32,544 nt of DNA from a virus. The stretch covers positions 1-32,544 of the IMG/VR virus record IMGVR_UViG_3300048599_000816; one strand, written 5' to 3'. A program made the translations under genes and the position numbers. Shown piece after piece: positions 3,539 to 32,446 of the stretch (the first letter of the stretch is position 1; each line of letters begins with the position of its first letter). The notes under the pieces were generated by a model. It was not told the origin of the DNA. It saw only the letters and a program-made list of their open reading frames with translations, and made no database searches.

Positions 3539-3569
3539 ACTATATCGAGAGAAAATAAAAAACTGCCAG
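3539..3569 (-). promoter_or_regulatory. conserved promoter-like motif; its TGGCAG is the 3' arm of a terminator hairpin
   Basis: minus strand reads CTGCCAACACTGGCAG-TTTTTTATTTT-CTCTCGATATAGTTACTATCA. Confidence 0.55.
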
Positions 3570-3579
3570 TGTTGGCAGT
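3553..3579 (-). terminator. rho-independent terminator (6-bp stem CTGCCA/TGGCAG, loop ACAC, TTTTTTATTTT)
   Basis: Seen in sequence on minus strand downstream of gene 3758..4072 and the GC-rich repeat A. Confidence 0.6.
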
Positions 3580-11842: not shown

Positions 11843-11875
11843 ACTATATCGAGAGAAAGATGTTTAGTTGCCAAT
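11843..11875 (-). promoter_or_regulatory. conserved promoter-like motif (near-consensus copy: TTGGCA-N17-CGATATAGTTACTATCAAC)
   Basis: Seen in sequence upstream of the J-domain gene. Confidence 0.55.
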
Positions 11876-12493: not shown

Positions 12494-12526
12494 AACTATA
12501 TCGAGAGAAACAAATGGAACTGCCAC
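12494..12526 (-). promoter_or_regulatory. conserved promoter-like motif (TGGCA-N17-CGATATAGTTACTATCAAC)
   Basis: Seen in sequence directly after terminator 12550-12587. Confidence 0.55.
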
Positions 12527-20479: not shown

Positions 20480-20537
20480 GTTCTCTCCTTTGTTTAGTGA
20501 TAGTAACTATATCGTGAGAAAGCGAGAGAGTTACCAA

Positions 20538-20563
20538 AACACAAAAAGGGGGCTTAAGCCCCG
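20538..20563 (-). terminator. rho-independent terminator (GGGGC-TTAA-GCCCC, TTTTTGTGTTTT)
   Basis: Immediately downstream of lipoprotein gene stop (20568). Confidence 0.6.
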
Positions 20564-23582: not shown

Positions 23583-24629
23583 TCATTCTTCGATAATGAA
23601 GCCTGCGCTTTTTAGAATTGCAGCACATTTTTTCACAATGCTTTTCTTATTCTTCCGGTCCATTTCTTTAAGATTTGGATCAGCATGAATGCAAAGTGCA
23701 AAGGTGATATCAAGTATTTCGCCAGCAGTAAGTTTTCCGAATTCTTCGATTGTGCTACCGGGTTCAGAAGTTTTGAGTGCTTCGATCTTCTGGAGATGCT
23801 CATTTTTAGCAGTCGTTTTGATAGAAGCTTTTTCCTGTTTCTGAGTTTTTTCTCCATTACGACGTTTACTTCCTTCAACAGCCTTTTCGATCAAGGGAAC
23901 TTTTGTTACAGAGATTTCTGTTCCTTTATTGAGGCCCATGACTTCATATCGACAAACCCGCATTTTCTGGTTGTTATAGTCATTAGGAACTGCAACAACA
24001 TCCCTCGGATTGACTTTGACTTCAATCAAAGTGCCGTAATTGCCACGAGCATAACTGAATGCAGCCACATGCAGACCTGATGAACAAGTTTCATTCCGGT
24101 TTGGATTTACCTTTTCTCTGGGCATAGTAACAACTGCACCAACATTATTGCAGAAAGTACCTGTGTGTGCATCGACCAGATCACCGTTTCCATTTTTCTT
24201 TACGCCCTTATAACCAAGAAAGCAACCATCATGAGTGATGGGCATCTTATTTGCTTCCAAGAAGAGAAACAAGTGCTCTCTGCTTTCTTTACTGGGATTC
24301 TCCTGCACATTGCGCCAGAAATTCAGAAGTGGAAGATGTGGTAAACCCTGTTTGCAGAAAGCAACAATACGATCGGTGATTGTATCATGTACTTCAACAC
24401 CGTCGATAATGACAAGACCAGAATCTTTGTCAACTTTGATTGTGCCCTGGGAGTATTCTTCGATTTTCGCCCCAACATCCAACTGTACTTTGAGTTCATC
24501 ATCAGATGCACCAGCTAAGAGCATAGCCATGACTTTGTCGTATTTTTCTGTGCCCTTTTCAAGGGTAATGGGACGACAGCCTGAAAGAGAAACTACCAGA
24601 TAATTTCCGGTAGACAACCAATTTGCCAT
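23583..24629 (-). CDS. hypothetical 348-aa protein, no motif recognised
   Basis: ORF track; CAGGAGAGAACATTATG RBS; motif near 24662. Confidence 0.85.
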   Translation of the reverse strand: MANWLSTGNYLVVSLSGCRPITLEKGTEKYDKVMAMLLAGASDDELKVQLDVGAKIEEYSQGTIKVDKDSGLVIIDGVEVHDTITDRIVAFCKQGLPHLPLLNFWRNVQENPSKESREHLFLFLEANKMPITHDGCFLGYKGVKKNGNGDLVDAHTGTFCNNVGAVVTMPREKVNPNRNETCSSGLHVAAFSYARGNYGTLIEVKVNPRDVVAVPNDYNNQKMRVCRYEVMGLNKGTEISVTKVPLIEKAVEGSKRRNGEKTQKQEKASIKTTAKNEHLQKIEALKTSEPGSTIEEFGKLTAGEILDITFALCIHADPNLKEMDRKNKKSIVKKCAAILKSAGFIIEE

Positions 24630-25127: not shown

Positions 25128-27302
25128 TTATATCAGTTTTTTATTAGCTATAAGGTCAGTTTCCATGAGTTCAATGTACTTTGCCATTGCAGTAACTGTA
25201 CTTGAATTAGACATTTCATAATTGTTTGCTATACTGAGAAGAGGAAACATCTTGTAAAGTTCTTTGATGTCAGCATTCAAATTTGAAAGTTGACTTACAC
25301 CAGAGTATTTGTCAATGAGGTTTGAAGGTAAAGAAACTGGTGCTGCAGGAACTGAATTCAAGACGTTTACCATGTCGCTGAATTTTTTTGATTTGAAAGG
25401 AATGTTCAAGAGCCATTTTCTTTCGCTCAAAATGCTGTGTATCTTTGCACCATCAATCATCTTTGTTATAATTGCTGGAGTCAATGCATCCAGTTTATCT
25501 TTGATGCTTCCGAAAAAGTTCACAAGTTTCGCACCACGATTTTTGTTTGCATAGATAATTCTAAAGTCTGGGAGTAAACCAGCTTTTACTGCATAACGAT
25601 ACATATTCATTTCTTCTGTGTTAGTATCAGGAAGAACGAGAATGTCATCAACAAAGCAAACTGCTGTATTTTCAGGTTTAAGTGGCGAACCACTTTCTGT
25701 TGTAACTTGAGTGTCAGTTACTTTAACATATACGTACGAACCAGGTCTTGATTGACCAGAACGTTTTGTATACTGTTGATCACTGATTGTCTGTACATAG
25801 ACTTTCAAAGTGTCAGTTGGTCGTGTAAAAGGAACTTTGGGTGTTGCACCAGATGCATCTTTCACGATTTTCATTTTATCAACTGACGAATAAAGCGAAT
25901 ATGCAATCCCAAGTTTTCCAAGCAATTCAACATCATGTAAGTATCTTCTCATTGATTTTGCAAGACCACGTTTCTCTTTGTAAGCGAGTTCACTGTATCT
26001 TAAGAACTTCGGGTCTGTAGGACGTATTGCAATGTATTCTTCATGTTTTGAAAAGATTGTTGCATCTTTCAAAGGAATGTATGATGATGTTTGATCGAAC
26101 AAGAATATAGGAGTTGTTGTAAGTTTTTTACTAACATCTGTTGTTCTTGTTCTTGAAACTTTACCACGATCAATCTCAACATTGAAGAATTGAAGTGTTT
26201 GAAAATGTTCGTCAAGTCTCAATTTCAATGACCGTTCATCAAACTTTGAAATTGTACTAAAGAAAGGATCATTGGAAGTTAGTTGCTGTTTGATGATTTT
26301 GAACCAGATATTTGAATCACGGTAATGATTGAAGATAGCAGCATCGATCCATGACTGGTTTTGTTTGTAAAGTGCTTCATAATTCGATTTGCAAAGATTA
26401 ACAAGTTCAACGAAACGTTTGTTGATTGCAGTTTTGGTTTTGTCATCGTACTGGAGAGTTTCTCTGTTTGCAGAAATTGTAAGTTCTCCAACGTTGAACT
26501 TGAAAATGATTAAAAAATCACTAACATAGTAATTTGCAAAGTTCATTGCACTCGTACTAATAGGATAGTAAATACCATCAAGCAAAAGTCCATAACCTGA
26601 GTTGAGAAGATCCTGTTCAATGATTAAGAAGTTTTCATCATCAAGAACTGGTTTAAGAACGATAGTATCGAACTTACGAGAGAAGTTTTTGTAGATGGGT
26701 CTCATTGGCCAGAAAGCAGTAGCTTTATAAACTTCACGTTCAAATTCTCTACGATCCTGTTCTTTGATCGGTATGATGATTGTTGTACCAGAATTCTCTG
26801 TTGATTCAGCAGAATCAATGCAGTAGATTTTTCCTTTACGACCCTCTTCGATTGCAGCAACATAAGTATATTTGATTCCTGCAACGATTGTTTCGATTGT
26901 GAAGTTGTCAGCATAACTGAAAGGTGTTTTTGCACCAAGACCAAAACCACCAGTGTAAGTGTCAGATTCACGTTTTGTGCTTGAGCCGTAGTTAACGAAA
27001 ACGTCAGCCATACGTTCTGGTGAGATACCAGGGCCAAAGTCCTTGAAAGAGATTGTCATGTCACTGGCAGACAAAGCAGAATGATTGATTGCGATCTCGA
27101 TAGGTACGTTGTTTTCTGATTCGCGGTTTGCATCCCTTGAATTTGATGCGATCTCTCTGCAAATTGCACCAATTGGATTTGAGTAAAGTTTAGAACGAAG
27201 TATTTCCAAAACCAGACCCATATCAGCATCTTTGATACCGAAACTGAATTCTTTAAAACTTTGGGATGTTGAAACTGTTGTTGGTTTGTTTTCAATAATC
27301 AT
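25128..27302 (-). CDS. GHKL-superfamily ATPase (Hsp90/histidine-kinase/MutL-like ATP-binding fold), 724 aa
   Basis: N-box EIASNSRDA, G1 DFGPGIS, G2 TGGFGLGAKTPF in the N-terminal ~130 aa; no Toprim EGDSA motif seen; AAGGAGAGAGAAAATG RBS; motif near 27351. Confidence 0.85.
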   Translation of the reverse strand: MIIENKPTTVSTSQSFKEFSFGIKDADMGLVLEILRSKLYSNPIGAICREIASNSRDANRESENNVPIEIAINHSALSASDMTISFKDFGPGISPERMADVFVNYGSSTKRESDTYTGGFGLGAKTPFSYADNFTIETIVAGIKYTYVAAIEEGRKGKIYCIDSAESTENSGTTIIIPIKEQDRREFEREVYKATAFWPMRPIYKNFSRKFDTIVLKPVLDDENFLIIEQDLLNSGYGLLLDGIYYPISTSAMNFANYYVSDFLIIFKFNVGELTISANRETLQYDDKTKTAINKRFVELVNLCKSNYEALYKQNQSWIDAAIFNHYRDSNIWFKIIKQQLTSNDPFFSTISKFDERSLKLRLDEHFQTLQFFNVEIDRGKVSRTRTTDVSKKLTTTPIFLFDQTSSYIPLKDATIFSKHEEYIAIRPTDPKFLRYSELAYKEKRGLAKSMRRYLHDVELLGKLGIAYSLYSSVDKMKIVKDASGATPKVPFTRPTDTLKVYVQTISDQQYTKRSGQSRPGSYVYVKVTDTQVTTESGSPLKPENTAVCFVDDILVLPDTNTEEMNMYRYAVKAGLLPDFRIIYANKNRGAKLVNFFGSIKDKLDALTPAIITKMIDGAKIHSILSERKWLLNIPFKSKKFSDMVNVLNSVPAAPVSLPSNLIDKYSGVSQLSNLNADIKELYKMFPLLSIANNYEMSNSSTVTAMAKYIELMETDLIANKKLI

Positions 27303-27551: not shown

Positions 27552-27795
27552 AGTGCCTCATTTCTTCTTTTAGTTGCTTTCTTTTCACGATACTTTTTTA
27601 TGTTACGTTTATCACCTGCATCCAAAGTGTAACCTTGGGGCAAACTAGAAAGCGATTTTGGAACATTTTTTAATTTCATAATATTTTTATATCGTGATAA
27701 ATCCGATCATTGCCATTCTTTTATTTTTATACTAAAACAGAAAGAGCTCTCGGCATTTTTACCAAGAGCTCTTCTTTATCAAGGAGAGAGAGTTT

Positions 27796-28161
27796 TCAAG
27801 ATTGAGGTTTGTCAGGTTTTGTCGCTTTTTGCATGTCCATAAACATTGCCAAAGGGAAAAGCAAAAGTTTGATAGAAACAATTGCTCCAATATAAAGTCC
27901 TGTTATTACAATGACACCAATAGCATTTTCGAAAGTTCCTGATGAATATGCTGTTGGTTGTTTCCAAAAGTTATCAAAAAGCGAAACACCATTGATTACA
28001 ACTGGACGAGTACTAATAATAAAAAACAAAGGCAAGATAGAAAATATCAGAATTCTTTTGACTGTCTTGAGAAAGGGAAGAGCATTGCAAATCAATTTCT
28101 CAATTAGACCAAAAATAAAGATGAACACAATCACAAAAAAACTAACCAATATTAACGCCAT
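27796..28161 (-). CDS. small integral membrane protein, 121 aa, 3-4 predicted TM segments (holin-like size, unassigned)
   Basis: Hydrophobic stretches in translation; ATCAAGGAGGTTTTTATG strong RBS; motif near 28186. Confidence 0.8.
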   Translation of the reverse strand: MALILVSFFVIVFIFIFGLIEKLICNALPFLKTVKRILIFSILPLFFIISTRPVVINGVSLFDNFWKQPTAYSSGTFENAIGVIVITGLYIGAIVSIKLLLFPLAMFMDMQKATKPDKPQS

Positions 28162-28234
28162 AAAAACCTCCTTGATAATTTCGATATCGAGAGATAGTAG
28201 AGAACTGCCAGGAGCATTTTAGCTCCTGTGAGGA

Positions 28235-29044
28235 CTATATCGAGAGATTAGTTGTTTCAGCCACCTTTTTTTGTCTTCTTTTTTGTTGTGCTATTCTCAT
28301 GTTTTTGATTTGCTCTGGCGTTCTTTTTTGACCATAAACATTGCTTAAAATCCCTTTTCTTCCATAACTTGAATTGTTTTTGCCAGATCTTTCTTTGCTA
28401 TACAAATCTTTTAATTGTTTTGCTTTTTCTTCTCCATAAAACTCTTCATAAGTCTTTCCTTTTCTTGAAGATTCTCTTCCTGTTATATCACCAAAATTGC
28501 GATTACCTAACATTGCTTGACTATGTTGTTTTCGAAGTTTGTCACCTTTTTCTTTCCCGTAGATTTGTTCGTAAGTCTTGTTTTTACGTTTTTCACTGAT
28601 TAACTTTTTTGTAGATTCTAAGACAATCTTTCCTTTTTGTGACAAACTCATTTTTTGCTTTGTTTTTTCAGAATGTTTCCTACCAGAGAAAGTATCTCCT
28701 CCATCACCCCCAGGTGTCAAATTTGTTAAAGGTCCTACAAGTCCATTTTGTACTTTTCTTCGGCCTATGTTCTTTATCAAGTCTATTTCTAGATCATTTG
28801 CTTCTTTAAGGAAAAGATTTTCTTTTACTTTGATAATTATTGGTGTTAAACCTAAACTTACAATCTTTTGAATTTTCTTTGATTTCATAGTTCCATCAAG
28901 ATAAACCAAATGATCTAAGAATCTTTTGTTTCTTCCTCTTCCAACATAAAAAGGCTCGTAATCAAATTCATACTTGTCATACTTGTATTTTTTGTTTTTT
29001 CTTGGATCAAAGTAGATGTATACATAAAAGTTGTTCTTTAACAC
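28235..29044 (-). CDS. GIY-YIG homing endonuclease with three NUMOD3-like repeats (GRKHSEKTKQKMS.. / GRESSRKGKTYEEF.. / GKNNSSYGRKG..), GTG start
   Basis: N-terminal VYIYFD...PFYVGRGRNKRFLDH matches GIY-(10-11)-YIG + R + H pattern (established family signature); RBS AAGGAGA buried in a perfect hairpin; stop codon is the TAG of a motif copy. Confidence 0.8.
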   Translation of the reverse strand: MLKNNFYVYIYFDPRKNKKYKYDKYEFDYEPFYVGRGRNKRFLDHLVYLDGTMKSKKIQKIVSLGLTPIIIKVKENLFLKEANDLEIDLIKNIGRRKVQNGLVGPLTNLTPGGDGGDTFSGRKHSEKTKQKMSLSQKGKIVLESTKKLISEKRKNKTYEQIYGKEKGDKLRKQHSQAMLGNRNFGDITGRESSRKGKTYEEFYGEEKAKQLKDLYSKERSGKNNSSYGRKGILSNVYGQKRTPEQIKNMRIAQQKRRQKKVAETTNLSI

Positions 29045-29045
29045 A

Positions 29046-29068
29046 AAAATCTCCTTGAAGGAGATTTA
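29046..29068 (-). promoter_or_regulatory. perfect hairpin AAATCTCCTT-CA-AGGAGATTT sequestering the homing-endonuclease SD, followed by TTTTTGTGTT (also terminator-like for upstream gene)
   Basis: Seen in sequence; 3' arm contains AAGGAGA 5 nt before GTG start. Confidence 0.6.
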
Positions 29069-29093
29069 TATCTTACAAAGATTTTCTTATCAA

Positions 29094-29969
29094 TTATTTT
29101 GCTATTTCAATGATTGCATTCCATGCATTTTCTTTTAAATAAGAAGCACCAAGAACTGAATTTGCAAGCCTTGTTTCTGCATCAGCAGAACGGTAATGAT
29201 CAATCCATTCGACGTAACCATTGTACAAGTCGTAAGCAGTTCCCTTACCAGTGCCCATACCTGCTTCATAGCATTCTTTAACTTTGTTGATAAGATTTTC
29301 CTGCCGTGTCCCGCCTTTTTCACTGAAGCATTCTTTTATGAAAGCATCAACCATCTGAGCATCAAGTACCTTCTGTGCAAGAATTCTGCATTGATCTTCG
29401 AACTTCTTAAAGTATTCCATACCAGCAGCCAGAATTCTGAGAGCTTCACCTGCTTTGATTTCACCATTTTTTGTATGGTGAACTTTGCATTTGTTATCTT
29501 TTGCCCAGCCCCATAAGCCATTTTTGCAAATTTGACGCCATGTAGTGAACTGTGCAGTAAAGGGATATGAACCATCGAAAGTATTAACAAGTTGGATTTT
29601 ACGAAAGACTTCATCGCCTTTTCTGATTTCAATTGCTCCATTGACTGTAGCTTCAAGGATAACTTTCCGACCACCATCAATGACATAAGCACCTGTGTAT
29701 CGTGCATTGTGCTGTGCACATACTGTGTCAAACCAACTGTAAGCAAATGAAGGTTGAAGTGGTGTATAACGATCACCTACAACACCGACGATTGCATGAT
29801 TATCAGAACGAACTACAGCCTTCTGATCAGGGATAATGATACCACCAGGAATTGATCCTGTTGATTTTGTTGTCATGTCAACGAGTTCAGCAGTCCAATT
29901 TGACTGTGATTTGTCGAGCGCTTCTTCAGCTGTTTTAACTCCACCCAAATCGTAATAAATTGCTTTCAT
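29094..29969 (-). CDS. DUF932-like (plasmid/phage-associated) protein, 291 aa; assignment tentative
   Basis: Overall length and pattern recollection only; AAGGAGTTGAGATG RBS; motif near 30012. Confidence 0.6.
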   Translation of the reverse strand: MKAIYYDLGGVKTAEEALDKSQSNWTAELVDMTTKSTGSIPGGIIIPDQKAVVRSDNHAIVGVVGDRYTPLQPSFAYSWFDTVCAQHNARYTGAYVIDGGRKVILEATVNGAIEIRKGDEVFRKIQLVNTFDGSYPFTAQFTTWRQICKNGLWGWAKDNKCKVHHTKNGEIKAGEALRILAAGMEYFKKFEDQCRILAQKVLDAQMVDAFIKECFSEKGGTRQENLINKVKECYEAGMGTGKGTAYDLYNGYVEWIDHYRSADAETRLANSVLGASYLKENAWNAIIEIAK

Positions 29970-30042
29970 CTCAACTCCTTAGAAAGGTTGTATTGTTTTG
30001 ATATGAACAATATCGTGAGATTCTCGTTATACAGCCAAATAA

Positions 30043-30393
30043 TCACAAACATTTGCAGAAAAAACGCTCACCGAACTCATTGACAAAATAAACATTTTCT
30101 TCTCCACGATTAGTTTCTGAAATTGCTCCTATTCTCAGACGAGCTTCCATTTCCTTAATACTTAGTTCTGTACATTTTTCGCTTTCTTCTAATCTATATT
30201 CGATAAGCTGTTTCTCAATCAATCTTTTCGGCAAGATTTCATCCTTAATATGCTTTGCTGCATTATTCTCAAGAAATGTAATATCTGTATTGATATCAGA
30301 TTGCATTTTCAAAAGCGTTTCTTTATTTGCATTACAAACAAAGTTAAATATCGCTTCTCCTATTATTAGCTTTGACTTATCAATATTGAACAT
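30043..30393 (-). CDS. hypothetical 116-aa protein
   Basis: ORF track; TTAGGAGTGTAGAGATG RBS; motif 30436-30466. Confidence 0.75.
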   Translation of the reverse strand: MFNIDKSKLIIGEAIFNFVCNANKETLLKMQSDINTDITFLENNAAKHIKDEILPKRLIEKQLIEYRLEESEKCTELSIKEMEARLRIGAISETNRGEENVYFVNEFGERFFCKCL

Positions 30394-30472
30394 CTCTACA
30401 CTCCTAACTTATGTTACACATTGTTTTAACAATAAGCTATATCGTGAGAAGATTGTTGGGTGCCAAACTTAT

Positions 30473-32083: not shown

Positions 32084-32446
32084 TCAGTCTAAGACGCCAA
32101 AACTTCTTGCATAAGCATTTACAGAATCAGATTGAAGTGCTGTCATTGAAATCGTTATTGTAGTTTCATTATAGATTCGAGCACTGAGTTTGTCAATGTG
32201 TGTTTTACAGAATTCATGAAAAGCAGCAACAACAGTTTTACTGCGGAATTGATAAGTTTTTTGCACTCTTTCGCTTGCTTCACATCTATAACCGAACTCC
32301 ATAGCTATAGAAGTAGCTTGTTCGATTTCTTCTTCTGTTGCTTCAACTTCAACTTTGTTGGGAGCAATGAAAGTTGCTGTTAGATCGAGAGCATTGTGAA
32401 AAGCTTGCGCATTAGGTTGATTAAAAAAATCGTATGTTTTTTTCAT
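32084..32446 (-). CDS. hypothetical 120-aa protein (starts MKKTYDFFNQ)
   Basis: Internal ATG (M15 of track ORF) 13 nt after the stop of the upstream partial gene, AAGAGAGAGAACGCTATG. Confidence 0.65.
   Translation of the reverse strand: MKKTYDFFNQPNAQAFHNALDLTATFIAPNKVEVEATEEEIEQATSIAMEFGYRCEASERVQKTYQFRSKTVVAAFHEFCKTHIDKLSARIYNETTITISMTALQSDSVNAYARSFGVLD

What the first reader, a model, noticed from the sequence alone, without database searches (positions are those of the whole stretch)
28170..29070. Free-standing GIY-YIG/NUMOD3 homing endonuclease with hairpin-sequestered RBS and a 3' end that overlaps a promoter-motif copy
The homing endonuclease (28235..29044) has no motif or promoter of its own. 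Its SD (AAGGAGA) forms the 3' arm of a perfect 10-bp-arm hairpin, AAATCTCCTT-CA-AGGAGATTT (29046-29068). That is the arrangement used by T4 homing endonuclease genes to keep translation off in read-through transcripts.

Its last codons and stop (..AATCTCTCGATATAG) are a complete copy of the gene-proximal motif core. A second motif copy follows about 55 bp downstream (near 28186), separated from the first by a hairpin (CAGGAGC-ATTTTA-GCTCCTG). This tandem duplication of the host signal around the homing-endonuclease 3' end looks like the footprint of the homing insertion, possibly with the motif itself as the homing target.
Basis: partly seen in the sequence, partly recalled or inferred. Interest (0 to 1): 0.6.

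Follow-up and report, generated by a model that had tools for sequence, protein, structure and literature searches.

The report
Mobile homing-endonuclease cassette in a jumbo phage
This is an ordinary but well-documented selfish gene, a Seg-like GIY-YIG homing endonuclease that has recently copied itself between strains of an uncultivated giant phage, and its start site is buried in an RNA hairpin while its last codons are a copy of the phage's promoter, as in the classic phage T4 examples.

Summary
ORF 28235..29044 (-) is a GIY-YIG + NUMOD3 endonuclease that lies between two complete genes. Its Shine-Dalgarno sequence and GTG start sit in the most stable start-region structure of the 53 I scored. 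Its last ~10 codons and stop are a promoter copy (TGGCT-N12-CTCTCGATATAG), and a second copy lies 53 bp downstream.

Six distinct HEG-less relatives have DUF932, one terminator/promoter module, then the small membrane-protein gene. The closest (L006) shows that an 865-bp cassette (29093..28229) replaces 9 nt. The hairpin between the two motif copies and the downstream copy are resident there; the 5' hairpin and the upstream copy have no counterpart.

Two strains that differ by 4.4-6.6% elsewhere are identical over 1,666 bp centred on the gene. That is a co-conversion signature of recent homing.

The two motif copies share only consensus positions, so this is not a target-site duplication. The motif as cleavage target is unlikely. 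The nearest homologue sits at the same locus without either feature.

T4 seg/mob genes already show each feature: promoter-less cassettes, RBS-sequestering hairpins and embedded promoters. Verdict: a new member of a known kind.

The parts
29094..29969 (-). DUF932 gene, the resident gene immediately upstream. Its transcript is the presumed source of HEG mRNA.
   Evidence: Pfam DUF932, E 2.1e-30. Homologues at 48-91% identity occur in related phage contigs.
30008..30037 (-). Promoter-motif copy upstream of DUF932 (TGGCT-N13-CTCACGATAT). It is the nearest upstream copy that could drive read-through into the HEG.
   Evidence: Motif listings. No other copy lies between it and 29044.
28229..29093 (-). 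The 865-bp inserted cassette relative to the closest HEG-less relative. It comprises a 49-nt leader, the 810-nt ORF and 6 nt.
   Evidence: Gapped alignment with L006. Window 29200..29094 aligns with L006 6770..6876, and 28228..28167 aligns with L006 6886..6947 (55 of 62 identical). L006 has only 9 nt in between (sequences).
29047..29067 (-). 5' hairpin: a 9-bp stem (AAAUCUCCU/AGGAGAUUU) with a UCA loop, followed by U5. Its 3' arm is the SD. It is also terminator-like.
   Evidence: Folds. Terminator scan (9 pairs, 3 G-C). Unique in the window.
29051..29057 (-). Shine-Dalgarno sequence AAGGAGA, 6 nt upstream of the GTG start at 29044..29042.
   Evidence: Sequence. GGAG unpaired probability is 0.00.
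29065..29093 (-). Lead only: TTGATA-N17-TATAAA(T), a sigma-70-like or T4-late-like box that abuts the 5' arm. A start about 7 nt downstream would omit the 5' arm.
   Evidence: Read from the sequence. TATAAAT occurs only twice on the minus strand of the window. It is not enriched or positionally conserved in relatives. Sigma-70-like matches are at chance level.
28235..29044 (-). Free-standing GIY-YIG/NUMOD3 homing endonuclease gene, 269 aa.
   Evidence: Pfam. Profile hit to PDB GIY-YIG chain 9u75, E 5.6e-7, and a weak hit to the I-TevI DNA-binding domain 1i3j. The AF2 model has pLDDT 85-98 for residues 1-90 and Foldseek hits to GIY-YIG nucleases. Conserved Y7, Y9, Y33, G35, G37, E86 and N108 are present.
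28235..28263 (-). Promoter-motif copy 1 (TGGCT-N12-CTCTCGATATAG). It encodes the last ~10 codons and the TAG stop of the HEG. The usual downstream TTnnTATCAA consensus is absent.
   Evidence: Homology to the nearest homologue P0037 ends at residue 256, about nt 28277, just upstream. It has no counterpart in any HEG-less relative.
28209..28228 (-). Resident hairpin CAGGAGC-N6-GCTCCTG. It is the DUF932 terminator stem in the HEG-less relative, and its 3' arm overlaps the TGGCA of copy 2. The U7 tail seen in L006 is lost here.
   Evidence: fold; L006: GCTCCTGGCAGTTTTTTTATATCG. Alignment.
28184..28210 (-). Promoter-motif copy 2 (TGGCA-N12-CTCTCGATAT), the resident promoter of the downstream gene.
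   Evidence: It is conserved in the empty site of L006.
27796..28161 (-). Downstream resident gene p121, predicted from its hydrophobic sequence to be a small membrane protein. It diverges quickly (41% identity to the L006 orthologue).
   Evidence: ORF. tblastn. Orthologues directly follow DUF932 in HEG-less relatives.
27674..29339 (.). A 1,666-bp tract with zero differences between the window strain and the L002/L003/L005 strain(s). I read it as a co-conversion tract of recent homing.
   Evidence: Divergence is 4.4-6.6% on either side, and the next-longest identical run is 131 bp.

Best explanation
An 865-bp free-standing Seg-like homing-endonuclease cassette lies in a variable early region of an uncultivated jumbo phage that carries rIIA and rIIB. 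It sits between the stop codon of the DUF932 gene and that gene's resident terminator/promoter module.

Shown:
- The protein has an intact-looking GIY-YIG domain followed by NUMOD3-type repeats.
- The cassette is present in one strain cluster and absent from six distinct related lineages.
- It lies at the centre of a 1.67-kb tract of perfect identity between strains that are otherwise about 5% diverged. This is what double-strand-break repair homing with flank co-conversion produces.

Inferred:
- The gene has no phage promoter of its own, so it is transcribed by read-through from the DUF932 promoter.
- On such transcripts its SD, GTG start and first codons are locked in a helix of -15 kcal/mol. 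With its U5 tail, the helix may also stop some transcripts. Both effects would keep endonuclease levels low.
- The promoter copy that forms the ORF's last ~10 codons belongs to the inserted segment rather than to the resident DNA. It is probably the promoter that followed the gene in an earlier arrangement, or a recombination joint that replaced a longer C-terminus. It now sits in tandem with the resident promoter of the downstream membrane-protein gene.
- The cleavage site is expected to lie in HEG-less DNA of this locus, within the converted tract, not in the generic promoter motif.
For: - Identity: Pfam GIY-YIG and NUMOD3 above their cut-offs. Profile and fold hits to GIY-YIG nucleases. 312 homologues with E <= 1e-10; the two whose contigs I fetched (P0038, P0040) lie between complete genes.
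- Free-standing: it is flanked by complete genes, and Rfam finds no intron.
- Presence/absence: L006/L007, L011-14/18, L015, L020/30, L021 and L022 lack it and have one motif copy.
- Mobility: 0 differences over 1,666 bp against 4.4-6.6% outside the tract, in independent assemblies from different samples.
- Locus specificity: the nearest homologue (54% identity) also follows the DUF932 C-terminus and precedes rIIA.
- Expression control: no motif copy upstream. Lowest start-region free energy of those scored and SD unpaired probability 0.00. GTG start.
- Precedent: T4 seg/mob genes are promoter-less cassettes. They carry embedded promoters for downstream genes (segG/gene 32, segA, segE, mobB, mobC), RBS hairpins (I-TevI/II/III, segB, Aeh1 mobE) and 5' terminators (mobE, segF) (PMC2988022).
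Against: - No cleavage activity or target site is known.
- The protein lacks the ~90-residue C-terminal extension of its two nearest homologues, so it could be a truncated, inactive copy. The identical tract could then come from ordinary recombination or a sweep.
- The RBS hairpin is not conserved in the nearest homologue (-5.5 kcal/mol, z = -0.27). All carriers of this allele are 100% identical, so there is no covariation evidence.
- The hairpin has only 3 G-C pairs, and whether it terminates is unknown.
- The promoter motif's polymerase or sigma factor, its start site and its activity are unknown. 'Promoter' is itself an inference from its position upstream of SD-led genes.
- Copy 1 is redundant with the intact resident copy, unlike the T4 cases where the resident promoter was displaced.
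Confidence: 0.75

Rival explanations
1. The 5' hairpin is mainly an intrinsic terminator or attenuator that came with the cassette. It takes over from the displaced DUF932 terminator, and the overlap with the SD is incidental. Low HEG expression would then be a by-product of termination rather than of translational masking.
For: - A 9-bp stem followed by TTTTT meets the terminator pattern.
- In the HEG-less relative the DUF932 terminator has a U7 tail, and that tail is lost in the window.
- In the nearest homologue's locus a strong terminator precedes the HEG.
- T4 mobE and segF have terminators at their 5' ends.
Against: - The stem has only 3 G-C pairs and -8.8 kcal/mol, whereas the longer-stemmed terminator-like sites in the window have 4-6 G-C pairs.
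- The helix extends to pair the start codon and codons 2-3, which a terminator does not need.
- The two roles are not mutually exclusive.
Confidence: 0.35
2. The two motif copies are a footprint of insertion: a duplication of the resident promoter made when the element inserted. The promoter motif itself is the endonuclease's target.
For: - The empty site has one copy and the occupied site has two.
- Copy 1 ends exactly at the cassette's right boundary.
Against: - The copies share only consensus positions, with 3 of 12 spacer bases identical and different flanks, so this is not a recent duplication.
- Homing by break repair creates no target duplication (established mechanism).
- About 26 copies in this window alone would be self-targets.
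- The homologous HEG at the same locus in L017 does not overlap a motif.
- The resident copy is intact and sits 34 nt beyond the junction.
Confidence: 0.07
3. The gene is a decaying, no longer mobile remnant that has been truncated at its 3' end by fusion to a promoter. The identical tract reflects ordinary homologous recombination or a recent sweep of this segment, for example one driven by the fast-evolving membrane-protein gene next to it.
For: - It is 86 residues shorter than the nearest homologue, and homology ends about 14 nt upstream of where promoter copy 1 begins.
- The tract extends further on the p121 side (561 bp) than on the DUF932 side (295 bp).
- p121 is highly variable between lineages.
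Against: - The reading frame is open, and all residues conserved in the family are kept.
- The catalytic domain is modelled with high confidence.
- Homologues of 226-246 aa that also end after the NUMOD3 repeats exist.
- The tract is centred on the HEG and is 12 times longer than any other identical run.
Confidence: 0.15

Closest known systems
Phage T4 Seg endonucleases (SegA-SegG): free-standing GIY-YIG homing endonucleases
   Same: - An intergenic, promoter-less cassette between conserved genes.
- A GIY-YIG catalytic domain with an extended DNA-binding tail.
- Presence/absence polymorphism among related phages.
- Co-conversion of flanking markers.
- A phage that carries rIIA and rIIB.
   Different: - No detectable sequence similarity to T4 Seg proteins in the phage-record search. 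The best named hits there are 'Seg-like' and 'homing endonuclease' proteins at 28-38% identity.
- The host phage is an uncultivated jumbo phage (contigs of 424-427 kb) with an unrelated promoter motif.
- Cleavage has not been tested.
RBS-sequestering hairpins of T4 I-TevI/II/III, segB and Aeh1 mobE
   Same: The SD and start codon are buried in a stable stem on read-through transcripts from upstream promoters.
   Different: In T4 a mapped late (or middle) promoter starts transcripts inside the hairpin and frees the RBS. Here there is only an unverified TATAAAT/TTGATA-N17-TATAAA box. The hairpin is absent from the nearest homologue.
Embedded promoters in T4 segG (gene 32), segA, segE, mobB and mobC
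   Same: A promoter for the downstream gene lies inside the endonuclease's coding region.
   Different: In T4 the insert displaced the resident start, so the embedded promoter is needed. Here the resident promoter is intact 53 bp downstream, so the embedded copy is redundant or a relic.
PeSL (promoter-early stem-loop) cassettes of RB49/phi1
   Same: A repeated promoter plus overlapping stem-loop modules punctuate a hyperplastic region of small ORFans. Gene content differs between relatives at these modules.
   Different: The promoter is not sigma-70-like. No mini-circles or module-to-module recombination joints were shown, and the HEG is not flanked by two modules.
I-TevI (intron-encoded GIY-YIG endonuclease)
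   Same: A GIY-YIG domain with a NUMOD3-type minor-groove helix region. The profile gives a weak hit to the I-TevI DNA-binding domain 1i3j, E 0.12.
   Different: - It is not intron-encoded.
- No zinc-finger or helix-turn-helix domain came up in the Pfam scan.
- The catalytic domain belongs to the LEM-3-like Pfam family. Its closest solved structures are the PD-T4-3 GIY-YIG nucleases.

Membership tests
GIY-YIG homing endonuclease (free-standing, Seg-like) | GIY-YIG catalytic domain with the conserved Tyr...Tyr-x-Gly, Arg, Glu and Asn residues | tested here: met
   PF22945, E 7.7e-7, above its cut-off. Y7, Y9, Y33, G35, G37, E86 and N108 are invariant in 29 homologues, H45 is nearly so, and all are present here. 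Profile hit to PDB 9u75, E 5.6e-7. The model has pLDDT 85-98 and a Foldseek hit to GIY-YIG folds at E 3e-4.
GIY-YIG homing endonuclease (free-standing, Seg-like) | C-terminal DNA-binding extension (NUMOD-type modules) | tested here: met
   NUMOD3 scores 23.3 bits against a cut-off of 20.4 at residues 121-139. By eye there are further NUMOD3-like repeats up to about residue 256. A weak profile hit to the I-TevI DNA-binding domain. The terminal domain seen in P0037 and P0038 is absent.
GIY-YIG homing endonuclease (free-standing, Seg-like) | Located between genes, not inside an intron or intein | tested here: met
   The flanking genes are complete and adjacent in HEG-less relatives. No Rfam intron was found.
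GIY-YIG homing endonuclease (free-standing, Seg-like) | Presence/absence polymorphism at a fixed locus in related genomes | tested here: met
   Present in the window strain and L002-L005, with a homologue in L017 at the same locus. Absent in six distinct lineages.
GIY-YIG homing endonuclease (free-standing, Seg-like) | Co-conversion of flanking sequence with the element | tested here: met
   A 1,666-bp tract of zero divergence is centred on the gene, against a background of 4.4-6.6%.
GIY-YIG homing endonuclease (free-standing, Seg-like) | Site-specific double-strand cleavage of the HEG-less allele | not testable with these tools
   This needs purified protein and L006-type substrate DNA.
T4-type translational masking of endonuclease genes | The SD and start codon are paired in a stable RNA structure on read-through transcripts | tested here: met
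   -15.0 kcal/mol, z = -4.1. GGAG unpaired probability is 0.00. It is the most stable of the 53 start regions scored. This is a prediction only.
T4-type translational masking of endonuclease genes | A later promoter positioned so that its transcripts lack the 5' arm | tested here: inconclusive
   TTGATA-N17-TATAAA(T) lies at 29093..29064 and abuts the 5' arm. TATAAAT is rare in the window, but there is no evidence that this phage uses such promoters and no conservation. Sigma-70-like matches are at chance level.
T4-type translational masking of endonuclease genes | The structure is conserved, or covaries, in homologous cassettes | tested here: not met
   All carriers are 100% identical. The nearest homologue's leader folds no better than shuffled sequence.
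Embedded promoter for the downstream gene (T4 segG/gene 32 type) | A promoter sequence lies inside the endonuclease ORF and faces the downstream gene | tested here: met
   TGGCT-N12-CTCTCGATATAG at 28263..28235. Its activity was not tested. Its score on a fixed-register matrix is low (10.3), mainly because the downstream half does not match.
Embedded promoter for the downstream gene (T4 segG/gene 32 type) | The resident promoter was displaced, so the embedded one is required | tested here: not met
   The resident copy at 28210..28184 is intact and 89% identical in context to the empty site.
PeSL-like mobile regulatory cassette | Repeated promoter plus stem-loop modules in a hyperplastic region | tested here: met
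   Twenty-six minus-strand copies. Hairpins overlap or precede the TGGCA, for example at 28228..28209, 3579..3562 and 20562..20549. Gene content between DUF932 and rIIA varies among relatives.
PeSL-like mobile regulatory cassette | The insert is bounded by two modules as recombination joints | tested here: not met
   No module lies on the 5' side. The resemblance of the HEG leader to a promoter module is not better than shuffled sequence (926 of 2,000 shuffles reach the observed score).
Transposon-type target-site duplication | Identical direct repeats flank the insert | tested here: not met
   Both motif copies lie 3' of the ORF and share only consensus positions. No direct repeat brackets the insert, although a 15/17 match joins the HEG and p121 start regions (D13).

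The most novel reading that the evidence does not exclude
The promoter copy fused to the endonuclease's 3' end is a functional, portable part of the element. It would be an outward-facing promoter that the cassette carries so that it can land upstream of any gene without a polar cost. Its about 26 genomic homologues in this window could also give it recombination handles for hopping between intergenic modules of the hyperplastic region, combining homing with PeSL-type shuffling. A stronger variant is that the enzyme recognises the terminator/promoter junction itself.
Probability: 0.1. Interest if true: 0.55.

Novelty: new member of a known kind. Interest (0 to 1): 0.3.

Why it matters
It shows that the regulatory solutions worked out for T4 homing endonucleases recur in a very distant, uncultivated jumbo phage that uses a different promoter type. 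Those solutions are a promoter-less cassette, a masked ribosome-binding site and a promoter inside the coding region.

It also provides a clean natural example of homing seen purely in metagenome assemblies. There are occupied and empty alleles, exact insertion boundaries, and a 1.67-kb co-conversion tract.

For practical annotation, it marks the DUF932-to-rIIA interval as a hyperplastic locus. It also gives a defined substrate, the L006-type empty site, for testing a new GIY-YIG specificity.

Tried and rejected
1. Close relatives in curated collections. Megablast of 8.5 kb against phage records found nothing. tblastn of DUF932 and the HEG found only distant hits below 40% identity. IMG/VR scans with DUF932 and with the HEG pair alignment gave no close relatives. 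The useful relatives came from the protein database and its contig look-ups, and from the metagenome scan.

2. Covariation in the 5' hairpin. All four carrier contigs are 100% identical over the region, so no test was possible.

3. The idea that the HEG leader is a decayed copy of the resident promoter/5'UTR module. The idea came from a 15/17 match of the two start regions (D13). Without the SD-to-start segment the similarity is no better than shuffled sequence (926 of 2,000). With it the result is marginal (50 of 1,000) and is explained by the shared SD and T-run. Rejected.

4. A T4-late-like TATAAAT promoter. The box abuts the hairpin and is rare in the window. It shows no positional conservation or enrichment in related loci. 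No late-gene region of this phage was available. I keep it only as a lead.

5. Single-sequence search of the PDB missed everything. A profile was needed.

6. Contexts of more distant HEG homologues (P0038 next to a RecA-like gene, P0040 next to a TnsA-like gene) are in unrelated phages and say nothing about the origin of promoter copy 1.

7. Other HEGs in the window. Pfam and PHROG scans of the larger ORFs found none.
Full report
**1. What is in the sequence**

The ORF at 28235..29044 on the minus strand encodes 269 aa from a GTG start.
- Pfam places residues 7-104 in the LEM-3-like GIY-YIG family (E 7.7e-7, above the gathering score). Residues 121-139 fall in NUMOD3, also above its cut-off.
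- A profile of 29 homologues hits a solved GIY-YIG nuclease (9u75, E 5.6e-7). It weakly hits the I-TevI DNA-binding domain (1i3j, E 0.12).
- An AlphaFold model has pLDDT 85-98 over residues 1-90. Its best PDB matches are GIY-YIG nucleases (PD-T4-3, E 3e-4; UvrC N-terminal domain, weaker).
- The residues that are invariant in the family are all present: Y7, Y9, Y33, G35, G37, E86 and N108.
- The gene lies between two complete genes, and Rfam finds no intron. It is therefore free-standing.

**2. The repeated motif**

- The 12-mer has 27 matches with up to 2 mismatches against 3.2 expected. Twenty-six are on the minus strand, and most lie 25-45 nt upstream of an AAGGAGAG Shine-Dalgarno sequence and a start codon.
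- It is not sigma-70-like, and sigma-70-type matches in the window are at chance level.
- That it is a promoter is an inference from its position. The polymerase or sigma factor that reads it is unknown.
- Both copies near the endonuclease's 3' end are complete bipartite copies. Copy 1 (28263..28235, TGGCT-N12-CTCTCGATATAG) encodes the last ~10 codons and the TAG stop. Copy 2 (28210..28184) precedes the next gene.
- No copy lies between the DUF932 promoter (core 30019..30010) and the endonuclease start.

**3. The 5' hairpin**

- AAAUCUCCU-UCA-AGGAGAUUU (29067..29047) folds at -8.8 kcal/mol alone.
- In context the helix continues, with interruptions, through the GUG start and codons 2-3. The energy is then -15.0 kcal/mol, z = -4.1, and no shuffle out of 200 folds as well.
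- I scored 52 other SD-linked start regions of the window in the same way, some of them spurious internal ORFs. This one has the lowest energy, and its GGAG has an unpaired probability of 0.00.
- The stem is followed by U5 and also meets a simple terminator pattern. It has only 3 G-C pairs, whereas the longer-stemmed terminator-like sites in the window have 4-6.

**4. Related genomes: empty and occupied sites**

Curated phage records and IMG/VR hold no close relative. The protein database, its contig look-ups and a metagenome scan gave 35 related loci. Some come from contigs of 424 and 427 kb, so this is a jumbo phage. It carries rIIA (25128..27302) and rIIB (23583..24629).

Six distinct lineages lack the endonuclease: L006/L007 (DUF932 91% identical), L011-14/18, L015, L020/30, L021 and L022. 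In each, DUF932 is followed by a single promoter copy, usually preceded by a hairpin, and then by the orthologue of the small membrane protein.

Alignment with L006 fixes the boundaries.
- Window 29093..28229 (865 bp) replaces 9 nt of L006.
- Homology resumes at the CAGGAGC hairpin and runs at 89% identity through copy 2 and the SD.
- So the hairpin between the two motif copies, and copy 2, match the resident DNA of the empty site.
- The 5' hairpin, the ORF and copy 1 have no counterpart there.
- In L006 the resident hairpin carries a U7 tail and so looks like the DUF932 terminator. In the window that tail is lost.

**5. Evidence of recent mobility**

Contigs from three other samples (L002, L003, L005) carry the same endonuclease.
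- Against the window they differ by 4.4-6.6% in DUF932, rIIA and the genes beyond.
- They show no difference at all over 1,666 bp (29339..27674), which includes the endonuclease, 295 bp upstream and 561 bp downstream.
- The next-longest identical run is 131 bp.
- This is the pattern expected from double-strand-break repair homing with co-conversion of flanks (mechanism as reviewed in PMC2988022).
- It does not by itself exclude ordinary recombination or a sweep.

**6. The nearest homologue**

P0037 (54% identity, 355 aa) lies on L017, again directly after a DUF932 C-terminus and upstream of rIIA. The family therefore appears to be specific to this locus. The homologue differs from the window's gene in three ways:
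- It is preceded by a strong terminator.
- Its leader folds no better than shuffled sequence.
- Its ORF carries about 90 more C-terminal residues and stops 27 nt before a single promoter copy.

Homology between the two proteins ends at residue 256, about nt 28277, just upstream of the TGGCT of copy 1 at 28263. The window gene's tail thus looks like a fusion of the ORF to a promoter. This could be a deletion or a recombination joint. Whether DNA binding suffered is unknown, and homologues of 226-246 aa that also end after the NUMOD3 repeats exist.

**7. Is the doubled motif a footprint of insertion?**

The proposed mechanism does not.
- The copies agree only at consensus positions, with 3 of 12 spacer bases identical and different 3' flanks.
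- Both copies lie 3' of the ORF.
- Homing makes no target duplication.

The motif as the cleavage target is unlikely. The carrier genome has about 26 copies in this window alone, and the L017 homologue occupies the same locus without touching a motif.

I also tested whether the endonuclease's leader is a decayed promoter module, which would fit a PeSL-type integration. Apart from the shared SD and T-run, the similarity is at chance level.

**8. Comparison with what is known**

Each feature has a described counterpart among the T4 endonucleases (PMC2988022).
[quoted passage not shown] - RBS-sequestering hairpins, bypassed by late promoters, control I-TevI/II/III, segB and Aeh1 mobE.
- mobE and segF carry terminators at their 5' ends.

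The promoter-plus-stem-loop modules in a variable ORFan region resemble the PeSLs of RB49/phi1 (PMC2839356).

The differences here are:
- The embedded promoter is redundant, because the resident one is intact.
- No bypass promoter is established. A TTGATA-N17-TATAAA(T) box abuts the 5' arm, and TATAAAT is rare in the window, but it is not conserved or enriched in relatives.
- The hairpin is not conserved in the nearest homologue.

**9. Verdict**

This is a real, probably active, Seg-like free-standing homing endonuclease in a new jumbo-phage lineage, and its regulation looks like that of the T4 endonucleases. It is a new member of a known kind, of modest interest. Its main value is the clean comparative evidence: empty and occupied alleles, exact boundaries and a co-conversion tract.

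Noticed in passing
window, about 26 sites on the minus strand (for example cores at 12507..12498, 20518..20509, 11855..11846): The gene-proximal motif is bipartite and long: TGGC[A/T]-N12/13-CTCNCGATATAGTT..TATCAA. It is unlike sigma-70, sigma-54 or T7-type promoters. What reads it (a phage sigma factor or a phage polymerase) is unknown. A more distant relative (L025) has a different repeated element, TTATAATTATAAATAA, upstream of several of its genes.
   Followed up: partly
window 32196..32168 (-): A perfect 12/12 sigma-70 consensus, TTGACA-17-TATAAT, the only one in the window. It lies about 106 nt upstream of the 307-aa gene (start 32062) and inside the end of the preceding ORF. It could be a host-polymerase immediate-early promoter, or chance.
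   Followed up: no
window 25128..27302 (-) and 23583..24629 (-): rIIA-like (724 aa, GHKL ATPase N-terminus) and rIIB-like genes (PHROG E 2.8e-65 and 1.4e-61). Relatives come from contigs of 424-427 kb, so the window belongs to an uncultivated jumbo phage.
   Followed up: partly
window 30100..30420, compared with L002 3970..4122 and L003: The 116-aa gene (30043..30393) is reduced to a 50-aa C-terminal remnant in the L002/L003 strain. This is a strain-level indel between two promoter-motif copies (cores at 30448 and 30019), in keeping with a hyperplastic region.
   Followed up: partly
window 27796..28161 (-), and orthologues in L006, L011, L015, L020 and L021: The small gene downstream of the HEG, membrane-protein-like by its hydrophobic sequence, is only 41% identical to its L006 orthologue. 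The flanking DUF932 and rIIA are 90-91% identical. It is a very fast-evolving gene at a fixed position.
   Followed up: no
many minus-strand 5' regions in the window (for example starts at 28161, 10597, 5303, 14793): In folds that include the promoter core, the core's UCUCUC pairs with the GGAGAG of the downstream SD (SD unpaired probability 0.04-0.25). Read-through transcripts might therefore translate these genes less well than transcripts started at the gene's own promoter. This applies only to the CTCTC variants of the core and may be coincidental.
   Followed up: no
L014 (NCBI GCA_028717785.1, contig JAQUND010000003.1, 109 kb): A contig deposited as 'Candidatus Nanoarchaeia archaeon' carries FtsK-like, DUF932, rIIA and rIIB genes in the same order as these phage contigs. 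It is probably a phage contig mis-binned into an archaeal MAG.
   Followed up: no
Foldseek result for the HEG model: The closest solved structures to the catalytic domain are the PD-T4-3 5hmC-specific GIY-YIG restriction endonucleases, which are anti-phage defence proteins, rather than I-TevI.
   Followed up: no
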